DNA from: a virus
Reading direction: 5' to 3' (one strand)
Virus genome (UHGV): UHGV-0120089
DNA: 14,833 nt
Every line of letters starts with the position of its first letter. Within the stretch, counting starts at the first letter, position 1. The notes under the pieces were generated by a model. The model did not search any database and was not told the origin of the DNA. It was given only the letters and a program-made list of their open reading frames with translations. A program made the position numbers and the translations under genes. Positions 2,825 to 14,587 of the stretch are shown piece after piece.

Positions 2825-3103
2825 TCATCGAGTGTGAGGCTGTATGATTCCATGGTTACCTCTGCTTTTTGAACGCATGTCACGTAACTTCTTAATGTGT
2901 TCTGCCGTTTCGATCTCTTCTGCTATCCGATCTGCATCAGCTTTATTCACAGGTTCAAAGTCATGATTAAAGCGGAACATGCTGGCGATACATGTTCTGC
3001 CTTTTCGGATGTAGTGAACTTTGTTGTGGGTAGAACGCAGGATTTTGCAGGGAGTGCCGTGGTGGTCGACGTACCAGGTGTTAGGAAAAATGATTCTGAA
3101 CAT
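2825..3103 (-). CDS. Hypothetical 92-aa early-left accessory protein
   Basis: ORF in operon orientation between excisionase and TraR-like genes; no family recognised. Confidence 0.5.
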   Translation of the reverse strand: MFRIIFPNTWYVDHHGTPCKILRSTHNKVHYIRKGRTCIASMFRFNHDFEPVNKADADRIAEEIETAEHIKKLRDMRSKSRGNHGIIQPHTR

Positions 3104-3150
3104 TTTTACACCTCAGTTGGACGATGTTGAAATTTGCTGCTTTGAGGCCA

Positions 3151-3369
3151 TCACAGTCCCCATTGTTTGTTCTTAAGTTCGATCTCCTCCTGGCAACTTG
3201 CACAAGTCCGACAACCCTGAACGGCCAGGCGTCTTCGTTCATCTATCGGATCGCCACACTCACAACAATGAGTGGCAGATATAGCCTGGTGGTTCAGGCG
3301 GCGCATTTTTATTGCTGTGTTGCGCTGTAATTCTTCAATTTCTGATGCTGAATCAATGATGTCTGCCAT
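3151..3369 (-). CDS. TraR/DksA-family C4 zinc-finger protein (phage TraR-like RNA polymerase-binding regulator)
   Basis: 72 aa with CxxC...(17)...CxxC (CCECGDPIDERRRLAVQGCRTCASCQ) and size typical of the TraR/DksA family. Confidence 0.8.
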   Translation of the reverse strand: MADIIDSASEIEELQRNTAIKMRRLNHQAISATHCCECGDPIDERRRLAVQGCRTCASCQEEIELKNKQWGL

Positions 3370-3417
3370 CTTTCATTAATCCCTGAATTGTTGGTTAATA
3401 CGCTTGAGGGTGAATGC

Positions 3418-3445
3418 GAATAATAAAAAAGGAGCCTGTAGCTCC
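3418..3445 (-). terminator. Rho-independent terminator-like hairpin on the minus strand
   Basis: Minus-strand reading GGAGCTACAGGCTCC followed by TTTTTTATTATT; lies between the 3468-3683 ORF and the TraR-like gene. Confidence 0.5.
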
Positions 3446-3467
3446 CTGATGATTTTGCTTTTCATGT

Positions 3468-3683
3468 TCACCGTTCCTTAAAGACGCCGTTTAACATGCC
3501 GATCGCCAGGCTTAAATGAGTCGGTGTGAATCCCATCAGCGTTACCGTTTCGCGGTGCTTCTTCAGTACGCTACGGCAAATGTCATCGACGTTTTTATCC
3601 GGAAACTGCTGTCTGGCTTTTTTGATTTCAGAATTAGCCTGACGGGCAATGCTGCGAAGGGCGTTTTCCTGCTGAGGTGTCAT
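3468..3683 (-). CDS. Hypothetical small early-left protein (71 aa from the MTPQQ start; a 93-aa form from 3749 is possible)
   Basis: ORF in operon orientation. Start is ambiguous: neither candidate ATG has a strong SD. Confidence 0.5.
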   Translation of the reverse strand: MTPQQENALRSIARQANSEIKKARQQFPDKNVDDICRSVLKKHRETVTLMGFTPTHLSLAIGMLNGVFKER

Positions 3684-3759
3684 TGAACAAGTCCCATGTC
3701 GGCAAGCATAAGCACACAGAATATGAAGCCCGCTGCCAGAAAAATGCATTCAGTGGTTG

Positions 3760-3951
3760 TCATACCTGGTCTCTCTCATCTGCTTCTGCTTTCGCCACCA
3801 TCATTTCCAGCTTTTGTGAAAGGGATGCGGCTAACGTATGAAATTCTTCGTCTGTTTCTACTGGTATTGGCACAAACCTGACTCCAATTTGAGCGAGGCT
3901 ATGTGCCATCTCGATACTCGTTCTTAACTCAACGGGAGATGCTTTGTGCAT
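3760..3951 (-). CDS. Small early-left protein, lambda orf63-like (63 aa)
   Basis: Position and size match lambda orf63 just upstream of orf60a-exo; sequence matches what I recall of lambda. Not verified. Confidence 0.6.
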   Translation of the reverse strand: MHKASPVELRTSIEMAHSLAQIGVRFVPIPVETDEEFHTLAASLSQKLEMMVAKAEADERDQV

Positions 3952-4106
3952 ACAGCCCCCCGTTTATTATTTATCTCCTCAGCCAGCCGCTGTGCTTTCA
4001 GGGGATTTCGGATAACAGAAAGGCCGGGAAATACCCAGCCTCGCTTTGTAACGGAGTAGACGAAAGTGATCGCGCCTACCCGGATATTATCGTGAGGATG
4101 CTTCAT
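3924..4106 (-). CDS. Small early-left protein, lambda orf60a-like (60 aa from the second ATG)
   Basis: ORF ending inside the exo start region; GGAG SD lies 8 nt before the second ATG (4106), giving a 60-aa product. Confidence 0.6.
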
Positions 4107-4783
4107 CGCCATTGCTCCCCAAATACAAAACCAATTTCAGCCAGTGCCTCGTCCATTTTTTCGATGAACTCCGGCACCATCTCGTCAAAACTCGCCATGT
4201 ACTTTTCATCCCGCTCAACCACGACATAATGCAGGCCTTCACGCTTCATACGCGGGTCATAGTTGGCAAAGTACCAGGCATCTTTTCGCGTCACCCACAT
4301 GCTGTACTGCACCTGGGCCATGTAAGCCGACTTTATGGCCTCGAAACCACCGAGCCGGAACTTCATGAAATCCCGGGAGGTAAACGGGCATTTCAGCTCA
4401 AGGCCATTGCCGTCACTGCATAAACCATCGGGAGAGCAGGCGGTGCGCATACTTTCGTCGCGATAGATGATCGGGGATTCAGTAACATTCACGCCGGAAG
4501 TGAATTTAAACAGGGTTCTGGCGTCGTTCTCGTACTGTTTTCCCCAGGCCAGCGCCTTAGCATTAACTTCCGGAGCCACACCGGTGCAAACCTCAGCCAG
4601 CAAGGTGTGGAAGTAGGACATTTTCATGTCAGGCCACTTCTTTCCTGAGCGGGGCTTTGCTATCACGTTGTGAACTTCTGAAGCGGTGATGACGCCGAGC
4701 CGTAATTTGTGCCATGCATCATCCCCCTGTTCGACAGCTCTCACGTCGATCCCGGTACGCTGCAGGATAATGTCCGGTGTCAT
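4103..4783 (-). CDS. exo: Lambda-type 5'-3' exonuclease Exo (Red-alpha, YqaJ fold)
   Basis: 226 aa; matches my memory of phage lambda Exo ([40 protein letters not shown]...) almost residue for residue. Start overlaps the bet stop (ATGA). Confidence 0.95.
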
Positions 4784-5565
4784 GCTGCCACCTTCTGCTC
4801 AGTGGCTTTCTGTTTCAGGAATCCAAGAGCTTTCACTGCTTCGGCCTGTGTCAGTTCTGACGATGCGCGAATGTCGCGGCGAAATATCTGGGAACAGAGC
4901 GGCAATAAGTCGTCATCCCATGTTTTATCCAGGGCGATCAGCAGAGTGTTAATCTCCTGCATGGTTTCATCGTTAACCGGAGTGATGTCGCGTTCCGGCT
5001 GACGTTCCGCAGTGTATGCAGTATTTTCGACAATGCGCTCGGCTTCATCCTTGTCATAGATACCAGCAAATCCGAAGGCCAGACGGGCACACTGAATCAT
5101 GGCTTTATGCCGTAACATCCGTTTGGGATGCGACTGCCACGGCCCCGTGATTTCTCTGCCTTCGCGAGTTTTGAATGGTTCGCGGCGGCATTCATCCATC
5201 CATTCGGTAACGCAGATCGGATGATTGCGGTCTTTGCGGTAAATCCGGCATGTGCAGGATTCATTGTCCTGCTCAAAGTCCATGCCATCAAACTGCTGGT
5301 TTTCATTGATGATGCGGGACCAGCCATCAACGCCCACCACCGGAACGATGCCGTTCTGCTTATCAGGGAAGGCGTAAATTTCTTTCGTCCACGGATTAAG
5401 GCCGTACTGGTTGGCGACGATCAGCAATGCGATGAACTGCGCATCGCTGGCATCACCTTTAAATGCCGTCTGGCGAAGAGTGGTGATCAGTTCCTGTGGG
5501 TCGACAGAATCCATGCCGACACGTTCAGCCAGCTTCCCAGCCAGCGTTGCGAGTGCTGTACTCAT
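4780..5565 (-). CDS. bet: Lambda Bet (Red-beta) single-strand annealing protein
   Basis: 261 aa; essentially identical to lambda Bet as I recall it ([66 protein letters not shown]...). Confidence 0.95.
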
Positions 5566-5570
5566 CCGTT

Positions 5571-5987
5571 TTATACCTCTGAATCAATATCAACCTGGTG
5601 GTGAGCAATGGTTTCAACCATGTACCGGATGTGTTCTGCCATGCGCTCCTGAAACTCAACATCGTCATCAAACGCACGGGTAATGGCTTTTTTGTTGGCC
5701 CCGCAGCGTTGCAAATGATCGATGCAGAGTGATTCAAACAGGTGCTGTGGAAGACCTTTTTCCATGTCGTCTGCCAGTTCTGCCTCTTTCTCTTCACGGG
5801 CGATCTGCTGGTAGTGACGCGCCCAGCTCTGAGCCTCAAGACGATCCTGAATGTAATAAGCGTTCATGGCTGAACTCCTGAAATAGCTGTGAAAATATCG
5901 CCCGCGAAATGCCGGGCTGATTAGGAAAACAGGAAAGGGGGTTAGTGAATGCTTTTGCTTGATCTCAGTTTCAGTATTAATATCCAT
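5571..5987 (-). CDS. gam: Lambda Gam (RecBCD inhibitor); 138-aa long form, with the short form starting at internal MNAYYIQ
   Basis: Near-identical to lambda Gam from memory ([61 protein letters not shown]...). Confidence 0.93.
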
Positions 5988-6085
5988 TTTTTATAAGCGT
6001 CGACGGCTTCACGAAACATCTTTTCATCGCCAATAAAAGTGGCGATAGTGAATTTAGTCTGGATAGCCATAAGTGTTTGATCCAT
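5942..6085 (-). CDS. kil: Lambda Kil (47 aa; FtsZ-targeting host-killing peptide)
   Basis: [47 protein letters not shown] matches lambda Kil from memory. It is the C-terminal 47 codons of the 89-aa track ORF and overlaps cIII as in lambda. Confidence 0.8.
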
Positions 6086-6218
6086 TTTTTGGGACTCCTG
6101 GCTGATTAAGTATGTCGATAAGGCGTTTCCATCCGTCACGTAATTTACGGGTGATTCGTTCAAGTAAAGATTCGGAAGGGCAGCCAGCAACAGGCCACCC
6201 TGCAATGGCATATTGCAT
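6054..6218 (-). CDS. cIII: Lambda CIII (54 aa; FtsH/HflB inhibitor protecting CII)
   Basis: Hand translation from ATG at 6218: [54 protein letters not shown], stop at 6054-6056; matches lambda CIII from memory. Below the ORF-track cutoff. Confidence 0.85.
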   Translation of the reverse strand: MQYAIAGWPVAGCPSESLLERITRKLRDGWKRLIDILNQPGVPKNGSNTYGYPD

Positions 6219-6290
6219 GGTGTGCTCCTTATTTATACATAACGAAAAACGCCTCGAGTGAAGCGTTATTGGTATGCGGTAACGCCGCGC

Positions 6291-6658
6291 TCAGGCGGCT
6301 TTGATAGTCATATCATCTGAATCAAATATTCCTGATGTATCGATATCGGTAATTCTTATTCCTTCGCTACCATCCATTGGAGGCCATCCTTCCTGACCAT
6401 TTCCATCATTCCAGTCGAACTCACACACAACACCATATGCATTTAAGTCGCTTGAAATTGCTATAAGCAGAGCATGTTGCGCCAGCATGATTAATACAGC
6501 ATTTAATACAGAGCCGTGTTTATTGAGTCGGTATTCAGAGTCTGACCAGAAATTATTAATCTGGTGAAGTTTTTCCTCTGTCATTACGTCATGGTCAATT
6601 TCAATTTCTATTGATGCTTTCCAGTCGTATCAATGATGTATTTTTTGATGTTTGACAT
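6291..6658 (-). pseudogene. ea10: ea10-like gene disrupted by a 1-nt frameshift near codon 11; the downstream 97-codon ORF (6291-6584) remains intact
   Basis: ATG at 6658 opens a 16-codon ORF (MSNIKKYIIDTTGKHQ*). The frame of the 97-aa ORF is open for 15 further codons upstream (YDWKASIEIEIDHDV) up to a TGA. Restoring one T at GATACGAC (about 6625-6632) joins them into 122 codons, the size I recall for lambda ea10. The total span is 368 nt, i.e. 369 minus 1. Confidence 0.6.
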
Positions 6659-6675
6659 CTATTCATATCCTCATA

Positions 6676-6704
6676 GATAAAAAATCGCCCTCACATTGGA
6701 GGGC
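6676..6704 (-). terminator. Rho-independent terminator on the minus strand (tL-like)
   Basis: Minus-strand reading GCCCTC-CAATGT-GAGGGC followed by GATTTTTTAT; sits between the N/sieB region and ea10. Confidence 0.55.
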
Positions 6705-6766
6705 AAAGAAGATTTCCAATAATCAGAACAAGTCGGCTCCTGTTTAGTTACGAGCGACATTGCTCC

Positions 6767-6794
6767 GTGTATTCACTCGTTGGAATGAATACAC
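6767..6794. repeat. Perfect 9-bp inverted repeat GTGTATTCA-N10-TGAATACAC
   Basis: Seen directly; located in the 260-bp gap upstream of the sieB-like gene. Confidence 0.45.
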
Positions 6795-6854
6795 AGTGCA
6801 GTGTTTATTCGTATGCCTGTCTTTTAACCACATCAGGCTCGGTGGTTCTCGTGT

Positions 6855-6904
6855 ACCCCTACAGCGAGAAATCGGATAAACTCTATTCACCCCTACAGAG
6901 AGAA
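6855..6904. repeat. Two 16-bp direct repeats ACCCCTACAG(C/A)GAGAA spaced 34 bp apart, just upstream of the sieB-like start
   Basis: 6855-6870 and 6889-6904, one mismatch; the second copy ends 16 bp before the ATG at 6921. Confidence 0.45.
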
Positions 6905-6920
6905 TGATGGAGATTCACCG

Positions 6921-7460
6921 ATGAGTAACTGGTGGCAGGAACTATTACGTTTCTTCCTGCGTGGTCTTACGCTACAACAGTTAATTCATATGCTTATTAT
7001 TTTAATTGCCTTGATAATAATCACCCCAGCATCAATTAAAGAGTGGGTAGATATAAGGAACCCCGAAATACTTCCAGATCACTGGATGTATTACGCAATG
7101 CTTTTGTGTATCAGTTATGTTCTGAACAGGGGGATGGAGTTTATATTTCTGGCATCTTCAGACAGATATAAAAAATATCTCAGTAAGAGAGATGAGGCTA
7201 AAGTAATTGTGGAGACTGAGCGCCTATTCAATTCTCTGAGTATTCAGGAAAAAGAGGTTTTAGCATTTGCTGTTATGGCAAATAACAAAATCGTACTTAA
7301 GCACGGCGATCCGGTCGCTTTATCTCTTATGAGAAAAGGCCTTCTCCATCGCTCAGGTGTGACTTACAGCGCGTCAGGTAAAGAGAAATTTGTTATACCT
7401 GACGTCTGGTTCCATGAGTGTTATATGCGCTTTGCTGGTAAAGCTGATGAGCTAATTTAG
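6921..7460 (+). CDS. sieB: SieB-family superinfection exclusion protein (membrane-anchored)
   Basis: 179 aa with a long N-terminal hydrophobic segment (LIHMLIILIALIIITPA); encoded opposite to the pL operon between the N gene and ea10, the position I recall for sieB in lambda and P22. Family assigned from position and architecture, not from alignment. Confidence 0.7.
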   Translation: MSNWWQELLRFFLRGLTLQQLIHMLIILIALIIITPASIKEWVDIRNPEILPDHWMYYAMLLCISYVLNRGMEFIFLASSDRYKKYLSKRDEAKVIVETERLFNSLSIQEKEVLAFAVMANNKIVLKHGDPVALSLMRKGLLHRSGVTYSASGKEKFVIPDVWFHECYMRFAGKADELI

Positions 7461-7482
7461 TTCCTCGACGGCGGGGGGATCG

Positions 7483-7755
7483 TCACCTCGCTGTCAGTTG
7501 TTTTGATTTCCGGTAGCCTGCCGCGTAAATGGCTACGTTTGGCAGGCAAATACTTCCACTGCATTCATCTGCCTTCTTGCAGCAAAGGCTTCCTAGCGAT
7601 GCTGCTTTGTCTGCTCTGACGCAACCAGAGAGCTTTAGCGCAATTTTTCGCGCCAGTCGCTGTTCTTGCATTGCCTGCTCACGTTGAGCCTGTCTGCGTG
7701 CTCTGCGGCGATTTCTGGTGTTATCGTCAGCCAGATATGTAATGACTACTGCCAT
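7483..7755 (-). CDS. N: N-type transcription antiterminator, P22 gp24-like
   Basis: 90 aa with an N-terminal arginine-rich motif (NTRNRRRARRQAQREQ). The C-terminal end VAIYAAGYRKSKQLTAR resembles P22 N (GVALYAAGHRKSKQITAR, from memory). First gene downstream of pL/nutL. Confidence 0.85.
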   Translation of the reverse strand: MAVVITYLADDNTRNRRRARRQAQREQAMQEQRLARKIALKLSGCVRADKAASLGSLCCKKADECSGSICLPNVAIYAAGYRKSKQLTAR

Positions 7756-7862
7756 GTTGACCTCCGATGATTGACTTTGGCGGTGACGCGCCGGGTGCTT
7801 ATCTTCCGGTTGCCGTCGTGCAGCTGCACTTCACGTCACCCCAAAGCCAACTACTCTTTGGT

Positions 7863-7904
7863 TCCCGCATTTCGGCGGGACAATCCCATCAATGTTAAAG
7901 AGCC
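7863..7904 (-). promoter_or_regulatory. nutL: boxA (GGCTCTTTAACA) plus boxB hairpin (TCCCGCCGAAATGCGGGA)
   Basis: Minus-strand boxA at 7904-7893 and boxB stem-loop at 7880-7863, about 110 nt upstream of the N start. An identical boxB occurs at nutR. Confidence 0.7.
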
Positions 7905-7949
7905 TGCCAATCTGTTCCGTTTGGCTTCCAGCGTCCTGCTGATGGCTAA

Positions 7950-8035
7950 AGAATACTGTAGGTATTTTATTGTGTAAATACCCAAGGTATTTATTTTTGA
8001 TGAAATAATGATAAACAAATGAATACAAAGGATAT
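7950..8035 (-). promoter_or_regulatory. pL promoter with OL operators
   Basis: Minus-strand -35 TTTACA (7978-7973) and -10 TATTCT (7955-7950), 17-bp spacer. Three ATAC-N5-(G/A)TAT operator-like sites at 7953-7965, 7978-7990 and 8023-8035, resembling the OR sites. Confidence 0.6.
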
Positions 8036-8122
8036 TTATTTTTTCGCTGTCTGCTTGTTCAGTGATTTTTATGCGGGATATGTGAAGTGGATCCCGATAG
8101 CTATTGCTGCCGGGATTATGGG

Positions 8123-8491
8123 TTAGTCAGCGAAGGTTAAGACGAGAATTACCTTAATGATGTCTGCTACAACAGACACGGCCATAGATAAACCAAAGAC
8201 GATCCAAGCCACAGTGATGTCTTCACTACCATCGTATAGAGTTCCGTAATCACTGGTGTAAGGCGTAAATGTCGCGCCTTGATACAATAGGTATAAGCTT
8301 GATCCATAGAGGAAAAATGCAGATATCCCTTGTATTGCCATGATCACCAGAATCATGAAACGAGCTGATCTATGCGCCCAAGCCTGGCTTATTTTTTCTG
8401 ATAGAGATTTCGCAATAAAAGCATGCGCTAAGCAGTAAATTGTCGATATTGCCAACATCCCTAAAAAGCTTGCTATAGCGGTTCCAACCAT
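8123..8491 (-). CDS. Unknown 122-aa membrane protein with three predicted TM helices, co-transcribed downstream of cI (rexAB position)
   Basis: ATG at 8491 preceded by SD AAGGGG at 5 nt spacing, 17 nt after the cI stop. The track ORF begins at TTG 8512, an alternative start. Hydrophobic stretches VGTAIASFLGMLAISTIYCLAHAFIA, FMILVIMAIQGISAFFLYGSSLYLLY, ITVAWIVFGLSMAVSVVADIIKVILVLTF. No similarity to RexA/RexB recognised. Confidence 0.65.
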   Translation of the reverse strand: MVGTAIASFLGMLAISTIYCLAHAFIAKSLSEKISQAWAHRSARFMILVIMAIQGISAFFLYGSSLYLLYQGATFTPYTSDYGTLYDGSEDITVAWIVFGLSMAVSVVADIIKVILVLTFAD

Positions 8492-8508
8492 ATTCGCCCC
8501 TTGCGTGA

Positions 8509-9225
8509 TCAAACCAGTCTGAGTTTTGTCTCAATTGCAACGCCTATAATCTTGCAGTTTCCATTGATTGGCACGAGAGGCCATGCAGGATTAAGTCCCT
8601 TGAGGTATTTATTTCCGCCGTCGATTATCAGCTTCTTGAATGTTGCTTCGTTAGAGTCAGAAAGTTTTGCTATGACCAAGCTGCCGTTGATCGCCTCCCT
8701 TCCGGTATCGAAAAGAACGAATGTTCCCTCTGGAATGCTTAACCCAACCGGTGACGTCATTGAATCACCTTCCACTTTAAGCCAGAACGCATTACCTTGA
8801 ATATGCGCGTCAGACTCAAGCCAAACATCTATGTCTTTAATGGTGTATGGTTCGCATGCTTCACACCACGAGCCAGCCTGGATACTGCTTAACACCGGAT
8901 ACCTCTTTCCTGCTCTGTATTCCCCTGCATACCTTACGTTGGCATCGCTCTTAAGGCTTTCTGCCTGTTCTGCAACCTTGGCAGCAATTGACTGGCTAAA
9001 ATCAGCAATTGAGACTTGCAACAATCGTGCAAAACCAGATGCAACCTCAACGTTTAGCGCATTTCTGCCATTAAGATAATGCCCTACCGCTCCTTGGGTG
9101 ATACCCAGTTCATCAGCGATTGAGTATTGGGTTATCCCCAATTCTTTCTTTTTTGACTCATACAAAGCCTTAAGCCGCTTAGCGTCTTCGAGCTGTTCTG
9201 TCGTCAGTGATTTTTTATTTTCCAT
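8509..9225 (-). CDS. cI: CI-type prophage repressor (HTH plus S24 autopeptidase domain)
   Basis: 238 aa. N-terminus LTTEQLEDAKRLKALYESKKKELGITQ parallels lambda CI ([27 protein letters not shown], from memory). Ala-Gly cleavage site (SIQAGSW), GDSM serine motif and catalytic Lys (TFKKL). Confidence 0.92.
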   Translation of the reverse strand: MENKKSLTTEQLEDAKRLKALYESKKKELGITQYSIADELGITQGAVGHYLNGRNALNVEVASGFARLLQVSIADFSQSIAAKVAEQAESLKSDANVRYAGEYRAGKRYPVLSSIQAGSWCEACEPYTIKDIDVWLESDAHIQGNAFWLKVEGDSMTSPVGLSIPEGTFVLFDTGREAINGSLVIAKLSDSNEATFKKLIIDGGNKYLKGLNPAWPLVPINGNCKIIGVAIETKLRLV

Positions 9226-9261
9226 AGCTTAATTCTAATAGCTAAGGTACTTAAACTAAAA

Positions 9262-9302
9262 ATACCCTGAGTATTGATTGTTTTGAATACCTGTAGTATT
9301 CT
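9262..9302. promoter_or_regulatory. OR operators with pR (and divergent pRM)
   Basis: Operator-like palindromes ATACCCTGAGTAT (9262-9274) and ATACCTGTAGTAT (9287-9299). pR -35 TTGATT (9274-9279) and -10 TATTCT (9297-9302), the same -10 hexamer as pL. A third operator was not confidently located. Confidence 0.6.
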
Positions 9303-9331
9303 TTGTTCATGGTTAATAACGGAGAGTGCAT

Positions 9332-9526
9332 ATGATTCGAATGACACTTGCCGATTACGCCAAAATCCATGGACAGGCTAAAGCAGCCAGTGACTTTGGT
9401 GTAATCCAGTGCGCTATCAGCAAGGCCATTCTGGCAGGCCGTAACATTATGGTTACGGTAAAGCCTGATGGCAGTGTGATTGGAGAGGAGGTTCGTCCTT
9501 TCCCAAGCAACAAGAAAAACAAATAG
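9332..9526 (+). CDS. cro: Cro repressor
   Basis: From ATG 9332 (SD GGAGAG 5 nt upstream): [64 protein letters not shown], parallel to lambda Cro ([59 protein letters not shown], from memory). Confidence 0.9.
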
Positions 9527-9532
9527 TAACAC

Positions 9533-9577
9533 CGCTCTTTAACAGTCATGGTCCTCATTCCCGCCGAAATGCGGGAA
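9533..9577 (+). promoter_or_regulatory. nutR: boxA (CGCTCTTTAACA) plus boxB hairpin (TCCCGCCGAAATGCGGGA)
   Basis: boxA at 9533-9544 and boxB at 9558-9577, between cro and cII; boxB is identical to the nutL copy. Confidence 0.7.
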
Positions 9578-9634
9578 TACAACGCGCATCAGTTGGTGCG
9601 CATAACTTCTTATTTGTTAAGGAAATACTTACAT

Positions 9635-9841
9635 ATGCAACTTACAAGTACTCGCAAGAAAGCGAATGCAATTACAAGCAACATCCTAAATCGAATTGCT
9701 GTACGTGGTCAGCGAAAGGTTGCTGATGCATTAGGGATCAATGAATCGCAAATTTCGCGATGGAAAGACAGCTTTATCCCAAAGATGGCCATGCTTCTGG
9801 CTGTGCTGGAGTGGGGTGTTGAAGACGAGGAATTAGCGTAG
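9635..9841 (+). CDS. cII: CII-like lysogeny activator, ending at an in-frame TAG after 68 codons (apparent truncation; 23 further CII-like codons follow in frame)
   Basis: From ATG 9635: ...ADALGINESQISRWKDSFIPKMAMLLAVLEWGVEDEELA*, parallel to lambda CII (AEAVGVDKSQISRWKRDWIPKFSMLLAVLEWGVVDDDMA). After TAG 9839-9841 the frame continues LAKKVAMVLTKEKPQDCGNSFEA* to 9913, resembling the lambda CII tail LARQVAAILTNKKRP. Confidence 0.7.
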   Translation: MQLTSTRKKANAITSNILNRIAVRGQRKVADALGINESQISRWKDSFIPKMAMLLAVLEWGVEDEELA

Positions 9842-9947
9842 CTGGCAAAGAAAGTAGCCATGGTGCTGACAAAAGAAAAGCCTCAAGACTGCGGCAACAG
9901 TTTTGAGGCCTGATGTAGAAAGACTGGATCAATCCACAGGAGTAATT

Positions 9948-10109
9948 ATGACAAAACGTCGTAAGAAATACCAGGAAAAAGAAGAGATTCGACACCCTGA
10001 TTCACCTGAGGGATTAGTGGTAGCCGCAGCAAATAACAGGGCGTTCGCAGAGCGCCTTGTTGGTGTTCACAGACTAGCCAAAGCAGGAGTGAAACATGGG
10101 CGTCGTTAA
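9948..10109 (+). CDS. Hypothetical 53-aa basic protein between cII and the initiator gene
   Basis: ATG at 9948 with SD AGGAG 7 nt upstream; lysine/arginine-rich N-terminus. No family recognised. Its 3' end overlaps the O-like start. Confidence 0.4.
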   Translation: MTKRRKKYQEKEEIRHPDSPEGLVVAAANNRAFAERLVGVHRLAKAGVKHGRR

Positions 10110-10917
10110 GTTAGCTGATTACAGGCCTCAACTGGAGGTCGTGGAGCATCGCGTGGCAGATACCGAAGATGGTTTCATGCGCGTTGCTAACGAGATTACC
10201 GACAGTCTGCTGATGGCTGATTTAACCGTCCGGCAGCTGAAGGTGATGCTCGCTATCATGCGCAAGACATACGGATTCAATAAGCCGATGGATCGACTCA
10301 CAAACACGCAGATAGCAGCCATGACAGGTATTCATCACACTCATGTTTGCGCTGCCAAGCGCCAGCTTATTGAGCGTAAATTCCTCATTGCTGATGGCGT
10401 GAAAATCGGAGTGAACAAGGTGGTTTCTCAGTGGATTAGCCAGGACAGCTTAACATTAGCTAAAACAGCTAATAAAACATTAGCCAAGTCGGCTAATGGG
10501 TATAAGCCAAGTCAGCTAAACACAAAAGACAATATACAAAAGACAATAAATACAAATACCCCCTTACCCCCTAACGGGGGCGGCGATGGGCAGGTTAAAC
10601 CTGAACGTCGCAAGGCAGAACGAATCGACTACGAATCCTTCCTGAACGCCTACAACACCGAAGTCGGTGACAGACTTCCACATGCTGTTGCAGTCAACGA
10701 GAAACGCAAACGCCGCCTGAAGAAAATCATCCCGCAACTGAAAACGCCAAACGTGGACGGTTTCAGAGCGTATGTCAGGGCGTTTGTGCATCAGGCCAAG
10801 CCGTTTTACTTCGGAGACAACGACACGGGCTGGACGGCCGATTTTGATTACCTGCTGAGGGAAGACTCGTTAACGGGAGTTCGGGAAGGGAAGTTTGCAG
10901 ACAGGGGGATTGCATGA
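10096..10917 (+). CDS. O: Replication initiator, lambda O-like (N-terminal iteron-binding domain) with internal ori
   Basis: 273 aa. [34 protein letters not shown] parallels lambda O (ADLTKRQFKVLLAILRKTYGWNKPMDRITDSQLS, from memory). Iterons and an AT-rich tract lie in the middle of the gene. Confidence 0.9.
10447..10560. repeat. Replication origin: three to four iterons (TTAGC(T/C)-N5-(A/G)GCTAA type, about 24-bp period) followed by an A/T-rich tract
   Basis: TTAGCTAAAACAGCTAA (10456-10472), TTAGCCAAGTCGGCTAA (10480-10496), TAAGCCAAGTCAGCTAA (10503-10519), then AAAAGACAATATACAAAAGACAATAAATACAAATA (10523-10558). Confidence 0.65.
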
Positions 10918-12290
10918 GACAGGATATCGAAGCGAGCGTTATCGGTGGCCTGCTGATTGGTGGATTAACGCCAACCGCCAGTGACGTTCTGGCAACGCTG
11001 GAGCCGGAAGCGTTTTCAATTCCGCTCTACCGGAAAGCCTTCGAGGTTATCCGCAAGCAGGCGCGAAACAGAAACCTAATCGACGCGCTGATGGTTGCCG
11101 AGGAGTGCGGAGAGGAGCATTTCACGTCAATCCTGATGACCAGCAAAAACTGCCCGAGTGCCGCAAACCTGAAGGGATATGCCGGAATGGTCGCGGATAA
11201 CTATCACCGCCGTCTGGTGCTGGAAATCATGGATGAAATGCGTGAACCAATCCAAAGCGGAACCATCGACGCATCGAGTCAGGCGATGGATGAACTTGTA
11301 AAGCGTCTTTCAGCCATCAGAAAGCCCCGTGACGAGGTTAAACCTGTACGGTTAGGGGAAATCATCACTGACTACACTGACACGCTTGACAGGCGTCTGA
11401 GGAACGGAGAAGAGTCAGATACCCTGAAGACCGGAATCGAAGAACTTGACGCCATCACCGGAGGGATGAACGCGGAAGACCTGGTGATTATCGCCGCTCG
11501 TCCTGGTATGGGGAAAACCGAACTGGCGCTGAAGATTGCCGAAGGCGTTGCAAGCCGCGTTATTCCTGGTTCTGACGTTCGGCGCGGAGTATTGATTTTC
11601 TCGATGGAAATGAGCGCATTGCAGATTGCAGAGCGAAGCATTGCCAACGCCGGGAGGATGTCGGTTAGCGTGCTGCGAAATCCTGCTTCGATGGATGACG
11701 AAGGCTGGGCGCGCGTTGCTAACGGCATGAGTCAGCTTGCAGATTTGGATGTATGGGTAGTCGATGCCTCGCGGTTATCGGTCGAAGAAATACGCTCAAT
11801 CGCAGAACGGCACAAACAGGAAAATCCAAACCTGTCACTCATCATGGTGGATTATCTTGGCCTGATTGAGAAGCCGAAAGCAGATCGCAACGACCTCGCA
11901 ATTGCTCACATCTCCGGAAGCCTGAAGGCGATGGCGAAAGACCTGAAAACGCCAGTTATCTCCCTAAGTCAGCTTTCGCGCGATGTTGAGAAGCGACCAA
12001 ACAAACGCCCGACAAACGCAGATTTGCGTGATTCAGGAAGCATTGAACAGGACGCAGACTCAATCATCATGCTCTATCGGGAAGCGGTATATGACGAGAA
12101 CAGTAGCGCCGCGCCATTTGCTGAAATCATTGTGACGAAAAACCGTTTTGGCTCGCTTGGTACGGTTTACCAGCGGTTCTGCAACGGACACTTTGTTGCA
12201 TGTGACCAGGATGAAGCCAGACAGATTTGCACAGCATCAAATGCACCTGCTGCGCGTGGCAGACGATATGCACAAGGGGCTGACGTATGA
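10914..12290 (+). CDS. Replicative DNA helicase, DnaB family (phage-encoded, P22 gene 12-like)
   Basis: 458 aa. Walker [10 protein letters not shown], Walker [10 protein letters not shown], and the N-terminal DnaB-like domain. Start overlaps the O stop (ATGA). Confidence 0.92.
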
Positions 12291-13406: not shown

Positions 13407-13573
13407 TTGACCCAAATCGAAGTTACGAACAAGAAAGCGTCGAGCGAGCTTTAACGTGCGCTAACTGCGGTCAGAAGCTGCATGTGCTGGAATTTCACGT
13501 GTGTGAGCACTGCTGCGCAGAAGTGATGAGCGATCCGAATAGCTCAATGTACGAGGAAGAAGACGATGAATGA
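13403..13573 (+). CDS. NinF-like zinc-ribbon protein (56 aa, GTG start)
   Basis: Hand translation: [56 protein letters not shown]; CxxC...CxxCC motif; GTGA overlap with the preceding stop. Below the ORF-track cutoff. Confidence 0.6.
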
Positions 13574-13820
13574 GTTAATAAATGGCAATGCCATCAAAAT
13601 GACAAGCATTGAAATCGCTGAGTTGGTGGGTAAGCGTCATGACAATGTGAAACGTACCATCGAAACGCTGGCTAAAAATGGTGTTATCCGGCTTCCTCAA
13701 ATTGAGGTTTCCGAAAGAATCAATAACTTAGGGTTCAATGTTCAGTACGAGCATTACGTCTTCGAAGGCGAACAAGGAAAGCGCGACAGCATTATTGTCG
13801 TTGAAGGAGGTGTTGCATGA
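13566..13820 (+). CDS. Short Rha-family (pRha-like) phage regulatory protein, N-terminal domain only
   Basis: 84 aa; MTSIEIAELVGKRHDNVKRTIETL resembles the conserved motif of the Phage_pRha domain. Overlaps the next gene by ATGA. Confidence 0.55.
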   Translation: MNELINGNAIKMTSIEIAELVGKRHDNVKRTIETLAKNGVIRLPQIEVSERINNLGFNVQYEHYVFEGEQGKRDSIIVVEGGVA

Positions 13821-14587
13821 ATGCCGTAATTATTGCCAACGCAGAAATCGTGCCGATTGAGTTTAATGGTGAGCGTGTTGTTACGTATCAAATGATTGCT
13901 GATATTCACGGGGTTCCAGTAACCACTATCAAAGATGGTTATGCGAGAAACGCGAAATATTTTATAGACGGAGAAGATACGTATCTTATTGATTTTACGC
14001 AACAGACGGCCTACCCGTCGATGAAGATTTCACCAAATGGCTTAAGGGTTTTCACAGAATCCGGCTATCTGATGCTGGTAAAGACACTACGTGATGAGAC
14101 AGCGTGGCGCGTACAGCGAGAGTTGGTGAGGAACTATTTCCGCAACAAAGTGAGCCAGCAATTACAACTGCCTGACTTCTCCAACCCGGCAGAGGCTGCC
14201 AGAGCATGGGCTAATGAGTATGAGCAGAAGGTGAAGTTGGAACAGCAGCTTGCTCTCGCAGCACCTAAAGTTGAGTTTGCCGATCGCGTTGGCGAGGCCA
14301 GTGGAATTTTGATTGGAAACTTTGCAAAGGTTGTTGGAATTGGTCCAAACAAACTGTTTGCGTGGATGCGCGATCACAAAATCCTTATTGCTTCAGGTTC
14401 CCGGCGCAATGTGCCAATGCAGGAATATATGGAGCGCGGCTATTTCACAGTGAAAGAAACAGCGGTCAACACAAATCACGGAATACAGATATCGTTCACC
14501 ACAAAAATCACCGGGCGTGGTCAACAGTGGCTGACCAGAAAGCTGCTCGATAACGGAATGCTGAAAGTAACAGGTGAGGCTGCTTAA
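13817..14587 (+). CDS. Phage antirepressor-type protein (KilA-N/ORF6N N-terminal domain plus KilAC C-terminal domain)
   Basis: 256 aa; domain architecture judged from the sequence (N-terminal YQMIADIHGVPVTTIKDGY...LRVFTESGYLML and C-terminal AEAARAWANEYEQKVKLEQQL...FAKVVGIGPNKLFAWMRDHKIL). Assigned from memory. Confidence 0.75.
   Translation: MNAVIIANAEIVPIEFNGERVVTYQMIADIHGVPVTTIKDGYARNAKYFIDGEDTYLIDFTQQTAYPSMKISPNGLRVFTESGYLMLVKTLRDETAWRVQRELVRNYFRNKVSQQLQLPDFSNPAEAARAWANEYEQKVKLEQQLALAAPKVEFADRVGEASGILIGNFAKVVGIGPNKLFAWMRDHKILIASGSRRNVPMQEYMERGYFTVKETAVNTNHGIQISFTTKITGRGQQWLTRKLLDNGMLKVTGEAA

What the first reader, a model, noticed from the sequence alone, without database searches (positions are those of the whole stretch)
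6585..6660. Single-nucleotide frameshift splitting an ea10-like gene
An ATG at 6658 opens a 16-codon ORF, and the frame of the 97-aa ORF is open for 15 codons upstream of its annotated ATG. Adding one T in GATACGAC fuses them into a 122-codon gene, the size I recall for lambda ea10. The surrounding block (exo, bet, gam, kil, cIII) appears to be essentially lambda-identical, so this looks like a recent inactivating or truncating mutation, or a sequencing error at that position. A 97-aa product could still be made from the internal ATG.
Basis: partly seen in the sequence, partly recalled or inferred. Interest (0 to 1): 0.4.

Follow-up and report, generated by a model that had tools for sequence, protein, structure and literature searches.

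The report
Frameshifted copy of lambda ea10 gene
A lambda-like prophage on a low-coverage metagenome contig carries the accessory gene ea10 with one T missing at codons 10/11; this almost certainly inactivates a non-essential gene of unknown function, or is a read or assembly error, and is an ordinary finding.

Summary
On the minus strand, ATG 6658 opens 16 codons ending at TAG 6610-6608. The 97-codon ORF (6584..6291) is open for 15 codons upstream. Lambda ea10 is 122 codons, and the window differs from it by one missing T (GATTAC to GATAC, next to position 6629) plus two synonymous changes.

This is the only gap in a 3,057-nt alignment to lambda (98.0% identity). All 118 related loci compared have the base. 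The deleted allele was found nowhere else: not in 1,476 complete E. coli records, 202 phage records, IMG/VR, JGI metagenomes or GTDB species representatives.

The window is ENA contig ERZ1309804 NODE_3968, coverage about 4x. A real private mutation (about 0.65) cannot be separated from an error (about 0.3) without the reads.

A working 97-aa product is unlikely. The internal ATG has no Shine-Dalgarno sequence and is not conserved. The lost 25 residues carry invariant Tyr7, the near-invariant E-I-D-H motif and two of the three predicted beta-strands. Programmed frameshifting is rejected.

ea10 is non-essential and intact in 108 of 109 sampled copies. Other contigs carry different lesions in its 5' end. 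This is an ordinary pseudogene or error of low interest.

The parts
6291..6658 (-). The whole ea10 (Pfam DUF2528) locus, 368 nt instead of 369. It is a frameshifted allele or pseudogene.
   Evidence: Alignment to lambda ea10 and Lambda_2E9; Pfam PF10800 hit; synteny between cIII and sieB.
6608..6658 (-). The 5' remnant: the native ATG, 16 codons (MSNIKKYIIDTTGKHQ) and a TAG stop. The first 10 codons match lambda Ea10, and the next 6 are out of frame.
6628..6631 (-). Site of the 1-nt deletion. GAT|AC replaces lambda's GAT TAC, so one of two adjacent T's is missing next to position 6629.
   Evidence: The base is present in 118/118 related loci. No exact match to the deleted allele in any collection searched.
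6291..6584 (-). The 97-codon ORF from internal ATG (Met26 of Ea10) to the native stop. Its frame is open a further 15 codons upstream, to 6629.
   Evidence: It covers Pfam DUF2528 profile positions 11-104 only.
6668..6672 (-). Native ea10 Shine-Dalgarno sequence (GAGGA), intact.
   Evidence: Anti-SD duplex of -6.1 kcal/mol for the native start against -0.3 for the internal ATG.
6676..6706 (-). tL2a-like intrinsic terminator (hairpin plus T-run) just upstream of ea10. In lambda this is the 3' end of the sRNA LPR1.
   Evidence: Terminator scan; lies within the 98% lambda-identical block; bioRxiv 10.1101/2024.10.31.621285.
6248..6267 (-). Terminator-like hairpin between the ea10 stop and cIII.
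   Evidence: It is a pattern match only.

Best explanation
The window carries a lambda-type ea10 gene (DUF2528 family, early pL operon, between cIII and sieB). A private deletion of one T at the codon 10/11 boundary has inactivated it. Translation from the intact native ribosome-binding site and ATG ends after 16 codons. At most trace amounts of an N-terminally truncated 97-aa protein could arise by reinitiation 24 nt downstream. That protein would lack the conserved N-terminal beta-hairpin and is most likely non-functional. ea10 is dispensable for lambda growth, and pL transcripts are N-antiterminated, so no polar effect on cIII, kil, gam, bet or exo is expected. This is therefore a neutral or nearly neutral pseudogenisation in a prophage. 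Shown here: the lesion, its uniqueness, the conservation of the lost segment and the absence of an internal SD. Inferred: that it is a real mutation rather than an error, that function is lost, and that there is no polarity.
For: There is a single gap against lambda in 3,057 nt and against Lambda_2E9. It is the only indel in window 3000-7000 where the window disagrees with every related locus covering the site (118/118). The contig is otherwise accurate: it is 100% identical to two independent assemblies over 4.6-5.3 kb (L143 and L142 right of 6675). That argues against a generally error-ridden consensus. Disrupted ea10 alleles do occur in nature. ATG to ATA is seen in two independent data sets (L142, L070). 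TCA to TAA, ATG to ATT, IS insertions and A6 to A5 are seen in others. The N-terminal 25 residues contain invariant Y7 and the 90%-conserved or better M1, K5, E20, I21, D22 and H23, across 74 homologues down to 36% identity. AlphaFold2 (pLDDT 95) places beta1 (4-11) and beta2 (15-22) there, with only one further strand at 101-107. The internal ATG has no SD, and position 26 is M, V, C or L in homologues. Complete homologues down to 36% identity are nearly all 113-131 aa, and the short entries are near-identical E. coli, Shigella or E. albertii fragments or lesion carriers. ea10 is non-essential, both by CRISPRi (PMC10695390) and because a viable lambda carries IS10 in ea10 (PMC2327257).
Against: The source contig has only about 4x k-mer coverage (NODE_3968_length_14833_cov_4.11), and no reads can be inspected. 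The allele is seen in no other sequence anywhere, which is also what an error would look like. The closest relative of the right arm (L142) has the T. Loss of function is inferred from conservation and a predicted fold, because Ea10 has no known assay.
Confidence: 0.65

Rival explanations
1. The missing T is a sequencing or assembly artefact of a low-coverage metagenome assembly, and the real prophage has an intact 122-codon ea10.
For: Contig coverage is about 4x. The deletion is in a TT dinucleotide, where flow-based platforms undercall (my own knowledge). The allele is absent from every other data set. ea10 is intact in 108 of 109 sampled copies, so an intact gene is the prior expectation. 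Several other '97-aa' calls are A6 to A5 changes or N-gaps that look technical.
Against: The same contig is 100% identical to independent assemblies over 4.6-5.3 kb. No other window-private indel exists in the 4 kb with deep comparators. The SPAdes-style contig name suggests short-read data, where single-base deletions are rare (my own knowledge). Real 5' lesions of ea10 exist elsewhere.
Confidence: 0.3
2. The two-frame arrangement is functional. A programmed -1 ribosomal frameshift or transcriptional slippage restores full-length Ea10, or efficient reinitiation makes a useful 97-aa isoform.
For: The frames overlap by only 19 nt (6629-6611), so a -1 shift there would restore Ea10. The upstream stop lies 24 nt before the internal ATG, a distance at which reinitiation is known in E. 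coli (my own knowledge of lacI and T4 rIIB restarts). A mini-ORF, ATG ACG TAA, overlaps the internal ATG as TAATG.
Against: The overlap sequence, in the upstream (zero) frame A CGA CTG GAA AGC ATC AAT AG, contains no X XXY YYZ slippery heptamer. The A6 run lies upstream of the TGA that closes the target frame, so slippage there cannot rescue. None of more than 1,900 related copies has this arrangement. There is no SD at the internal ATG, Met26 is not conserved, and the truncated product lacks two of three strands.
Confidence: 0.03

Closest known systems
Bacteriophage lambda ea10 (lambdap45, NP_040621; Pfam PF10800 DUF2528)
   Same: The position in the pL operon next to cIII is the same, as are the RBS, start and stop. 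The DNA differs by two synonymous changes, and the restored protein is identical.
   Different: One T is missing at the codon 10/11 boundary, so the gene reads as a 16-codon stub plus a 97-codon ORF. In the window ral and orf28, which lie upstream of ea10 in lambda, are absent.
Other disrupted ea10 alleles in public assemblies
   Same: All are lesions within the first 25 codons that leave the same 97-aa ORF callable. They are A6 to A5 (L125, L128, L132), Ser16 TCA to TAA (L127), ATG to ATT (L131), ATG to ATA (L142, L070) and IS3-family insertions (L124, L129).
   Different: Each is a different event, and none shares the window's T deletion. Those found through the 97-aa look-up are a biased sample. 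L142 and L070 were found without that bias.
Frameshifted accessory genes of laboratory lambda, for example the stf frameshift of lambda PaPa (recalled from memory, not tested here)
   Same: A single-base frameshift splits a dispensable phage gene into two ORFs without affecting viability.
   Different: It affects a different gene. That case is experimentally verified, whereas this one rests on a single low-coverage contig.

Membership tests
Lambda Ea10 / Pfam PF10800 (DUF2528) | Significant match to the PF10800 profile above the gathering score | tested here: met
   The 97-aa ORF scores 143.7 bits (cut-off 22) over profile positions 11-104. Lambda Ea10 scores 160.6 bits over positions 1-104.
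Lambda Ea10 / Pfam PF10800 (DUF2528) | A single uninterrupted ORF of about 113-131 codons that includes the conserved N-terminal segment (Y7, E-I-D-H at 20-23) | tested here: not met
   The reading frame is broken after codon 10, and the conserved segment is split between two frames. The locus is therefore an ea10 pseudogene or frameshifted allele, not an intact member.
Lambda Ea10 / Pfam PF10800 (DUF2528) | Position in the leftward early operon between cIII/kil/gam and ral/sieB/N | tested here: met
   Gene order is exo-bet-gam-kil-cIII-ea10-sieB-N. The cIII thermoregulator lies at 6173-6231.
Programmed ribosomal frameshift site | A slippery heptamer (X XXY YYZ) inside the frame overlap | tested here: not met
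   The overlap 6629-6611 has no such motif (read directly).
Programmed ribosomal frameshift site | The two-frame arrangement is conserved in relatives | tested here: not met
   None of 118 loci has it. No exact match in 1,476 E. coli records or 202 phage records. Zero hits in three large collections.
Single-stranded DNA-binding protein (the historical 'ssb' label attached to ea10 in some records) | OB-fold or Pfam SSB domain | tested here: not met
   [not shown]

The most novel reading that the evidence does not exclude
Loss of full-length Ea10 may be selected, not just tolerated, in prophages with this particular immunity/sieB backbone. Only two contigs found with this right arm reach ea10, and they carry different ea10 alleles. 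Each allele is knocked out within its first 11 codons, by the T deletion in the window and by ATG to ATA in L142. The background rate is about 1% disrupted copies. A second, separate speculation is that Ea10, encoded next to the FtsH inhibitor cIII, has a weak SPFH/HflC-like fold and acts on the FtsH-HflKC axis.
Probability: 0.08. Interest if true: 0.4.

Novelty: already known. Interest (0 to 1): 0.1.

Why it matters
It matters little. At most it is one more case of decay of a dispensable phage accessory gene, and a reminder that gene callers will report a 97-aa 'DUF2528 protein' from such alleles. The exact 97-aa product is on record in 234 blocks of the collection, produced by at least six different lesions or by assembly gaps. 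For annotation, the locus should be flagged as an ea10 pseudogene or possible error, not as a short paralogue. The side observations could be useful to anyone trying to give ea10 a function. These are the strongly conserved N-terminus, a confident fold model with no clear structural relatives, and the recurrent 5' lesions.

Tried and rejected
1. **Programmed frameshift or slippage.** Rejected. There is no slippery site in the 19-nt overlap, the A6 run is upstream of the closing TGA, and the arrangement is not conserved.
2. **A shared, circulating allele.** Rejected. The 70-bp query found no 100% match in 1,476 E. coli or 202 phage records. The 23-mer with the deletion gave 0 hits in genome contigs, IMG/VR and JGI metagenomes. 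As a positive control, the wild-type 24-mer gave at least 120 IMG/VR hits.
3. **A natural short (about 97 aa) DUF2528 subfamily.** Rejected. Complete homologues down to 36% identity are nearly all 113-131 aa, and the short entries are near-identical E. coli, Shigella or E. albertii fragments or lesion carriers.
4. **A contig riddled with indel errors.** Not supported.
5. **Looking for the same prophage elsewhere.** The SieB look-up led to unrelated neighbourhoods, and no complete E. coli genome has the ea10-sieB junction without ral. A neighbouring 122-aa protein did lead to L142 and L143.
7. **Window-private SNPs as an error indicator.** Two are synonymous and two non-synonymous, which is uninformative.

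Full report
**What is in the sequence**

All coordinates below are on the minus strand.
- An intact Shine-Dalgarno sequence (GAGGA, 6672-6668) precedes ATG 6658.
- That ATG opens MSNIKKYIIDTTGKHQ, which is 16 codons, and stops at TAG 6610-6608.
- A second ORF of 97 codons starts at ATG 6584 and ends at 6291.
- Its frame stays open for 15 more codons upstream (YDWKASIEIEIDHDV), back to TGA 6632-6630.

**Comparison with lambda**

Lambda ea10 (NC_001416 33536-33904, complement) is 369 nt and 122 aa.

The window differs from it inside the gene in three ways: one missing T (GAT TAC to GAT AC, next to window 6629) and two synonymous substitutions. Restoring the T gives a protein identical to lambda Ea10.

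Window 3755-6810 aligns to lambda 31000-34056 at 98.0% identity. There are 60 mismatches and exactly one gap, which is this one. 'Essentially lambda-identical' is therefore a fair, if generous, description.

The window as a whole is a mosaic lambdoid prophage. It has a different integrase, immunity region, O gene and DnaB-type helicase, and no database record matches more than about 63% of it.

**How unusual the deletion is**

| Search | Result |
|---|---|
| 70-bp query centred on the site, 1,476 complete E. coli records (1,754 places) | Best hits all 98.6%, i.e. 70 bases against 71 |
| Same query, 202 phage records | No 100% match |
| 23-mer carrying the deletion, GTDB species representatives | 0 hits |
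| 23-mer carrying the deletion, IMG/VR | 0 hits |
| 23-mer carrying the deletion, JGI metagenomes | 0 hits |
| Wild-type 24-mer, IMG/VR (positive control) | At least 120 hits |
| BLAST of the window against all fetched loci | Extra base present in 118 of 118 loci covering the site |

In the region 3000-7000, where 43-118 comparators are available, no other indel sets the window apart from all of them.

**Where the window comes from**

An exact-protein look-up identified the window as ENA metagenome assembly contig ERZ1309804 NODE_3968_length_14833_cov_4.11. It is identical to the window, deletion included.

Coverage of about 4x means an error cannot be excluded. Against a generally poor consensus, two independent assemblies agree with it exactly:
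- L143 (ERZ27288119) is 100% identical to the window over 4,575 nt.
- L142 (ERZ28617222) is 100% identical from 6675 to 11991.

I put a real mutation at about 0.65 and an artefact at about 0.3. Only the reads can decide.

**Consequences for the protein**

Ea10 belongs to Pfam DUF2528. The lambda protein matches profile positions 1-104, and the 97-aa ORF matches only positions 11-104.

I aligned 74 complete homologues with 36-94% identity, nearly all 113-131 aa long. The first 25 residues are among the best conserved:
- Y7 is invariant.
- M1, K5, E20, I21, D22 and H23 are conserved in at least 90% of sequences.
- Position 26, the internal Met, is M, V, C or L, so there is no conserved internal start.

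AlphaFold2 run with this alignment gives a confident model (pLDDT 95, pTM 0.86). It has beta1 at 4-11, beta2 at 15-22, helices at 28-80 and a single further strand at 101-107. The 97-aa product would lose two of the three strands.

The internal ATG has essentially no anti-SD complementarity, at -0.3 kcal/mol against -6.1 for the native start. The upstream stop is 24 nt away, so low-level reinitiation is conceivable (my own knowledge). A stable, active product is unlikely.

**Rejected alternatives**

A -1 ribosomal frameshift would have to occur in the 19-nt overlap (6629-6611). That stretch has no slippery heptamer.

Slippage in the A6 run (6646-6641) cannot help, because the target frame is closed by TGA 6632-6630 downstream of it.

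The arrangement is conserved nowhere.

**Biological weight**

- ea10 is non-essential in lambda by CRISPRi (PMC10695390).
- A viable lambda carries IS10 in ea10 (PMC2327257).
- Its role is described as not fully understood (bioRxiv 10.1101/2024.10.31.621285).
- pL transcripts are N-antiterminated and the downstream genes have their own ribosome-binding sites. I therefore infer no polar effect, from established lambda biology.

The gene is nevertheless normally kept intact. Of 109 complete copies in IMG/VR loci chosen only by the wild-type 24-mer, 108 are intact 122-codon genes.

**Other lesions in ea10**

Contigs on which a gene caller produced the same 97-aa product have different causes:
- A6 to A5 in L125, L128 and L132. 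L132 looks like lambda itself.
- TCA to TAA at Ser16 in L127.
- ATG to ATT in L131.
- IS3-family insertions in L124 and L129.
- N-gaps in L123 and L130.

That sample is biased towards 5' lesions.

One observation is not biased. L142 was found through a neighbouring gene and is the closest relative of the window's right arm. It has the T but has ATG to ATA at the ea10 start.

All 10 differences between the window and L142 lie at 6087-6674. The two contigs therefore carry different left-arm modules joined near the tL2a region. L142's left arm matches IMG/VR locus L070 at 99.9%, including the ATA start and C79Y.

So only two contigs found with this immunity backbone reach ea10, and each has a broken ea10 start region. 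That is curious, but with n = 2 it is no more than a hint.

**Fold and function**

ea10 lies next to cIII, an FtsH inhibitor, so the HflC resemblance is suggestive. It is too weak to claim. The historical 'ssb' label has no support from domain or fold evidence.

**Verdict**

The finding is real in the sequence and was correctly interpreted. It is an ordinary frameshifted copy, or possibly an assembly error, of a known dispensable lambda gene. Novelty is 'already known' and interest is low.

Noticed in passing
L142:5290-5421 (ENA ERZ28617222 scaffold_6423), L070 (IMGVR_UViG_2563366837_000010); corresponds to window 6656: L142 is the closest relative of the window's right arm and is 100% identical over 6675-11991. 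Its ea10 has the T, but the start codon is ATG to ATA and there is a C79Y change. The same allele occurs in IMG/VR locus L070 on a different immunity backbone. Both contigs with this backbone that reach ea10 therefore have a broken ea10 5' end, caused by different events.
   Followed up: partly
window 6087-6674 vs 6675-11991: All 10 differences between the window and L142 cluster in 590 bp covering cIII and ea10, and the adjacent 5.3 kb is identical. This marks a mosaic (recombination) junction just upstream of ea10, near the tL2a terminator.
   Followed up: yes
window ~6811-6813: Lambda's ral and orf28 (lambda 34057-34395) are absent. The alignment to lambda jumps from 34056 to 34396. No complete E. 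coli genome in the collection has this ea10-sieB junction in one piece.
   Followed up: partly
window ~6681-6768, minus strand: The region homologous to lambda's Hfq-dependent sRNA LPR1 is retained at about 98% identity, even though ral is gone. LPR1 is about 88 nt and ends at terminator tL2a. The hairpin lies at 6706-6685 and is followed by a T-run.
   Followed up: partly
window 6173-6231, minus strand: There is an Rfam Lambda_thermo match (the cIII thermoregulator) at 88.5 bits over the full model. The cIII translational control element is therefore intact downstream of the broken ea10.
   Followed up: no
[not shown]
   Followed up: partly
L125, L128, L132 (corresponds to window 6641-6646): Three unrelated assemblies have A5 instead of A6 at ea10 codons 5-6, and one of them looks like lambda itself (SRR100309). 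This is a recurrent homopolymer frameshift that may be technical or real slippage.
   Followed up: no
window 13566-13820 and 13817-14587, plus strand: An 84-aa ORF matches only the first 27 positions of Pfam Phage_pRha. It overlaps by 4 nt the start of a 256-aa ORF6N + KilAC antirepressor gene. It may be a truncated or remnant Rha-like gene.
   Followed up: no
window 4507, 4603, 5008, 5695: Four substitutions are private to the window among 76-92 related loci: exo E93K, exo L61 synonymous, bet A186 synonymous and gam S98N.
   Followed up: partly
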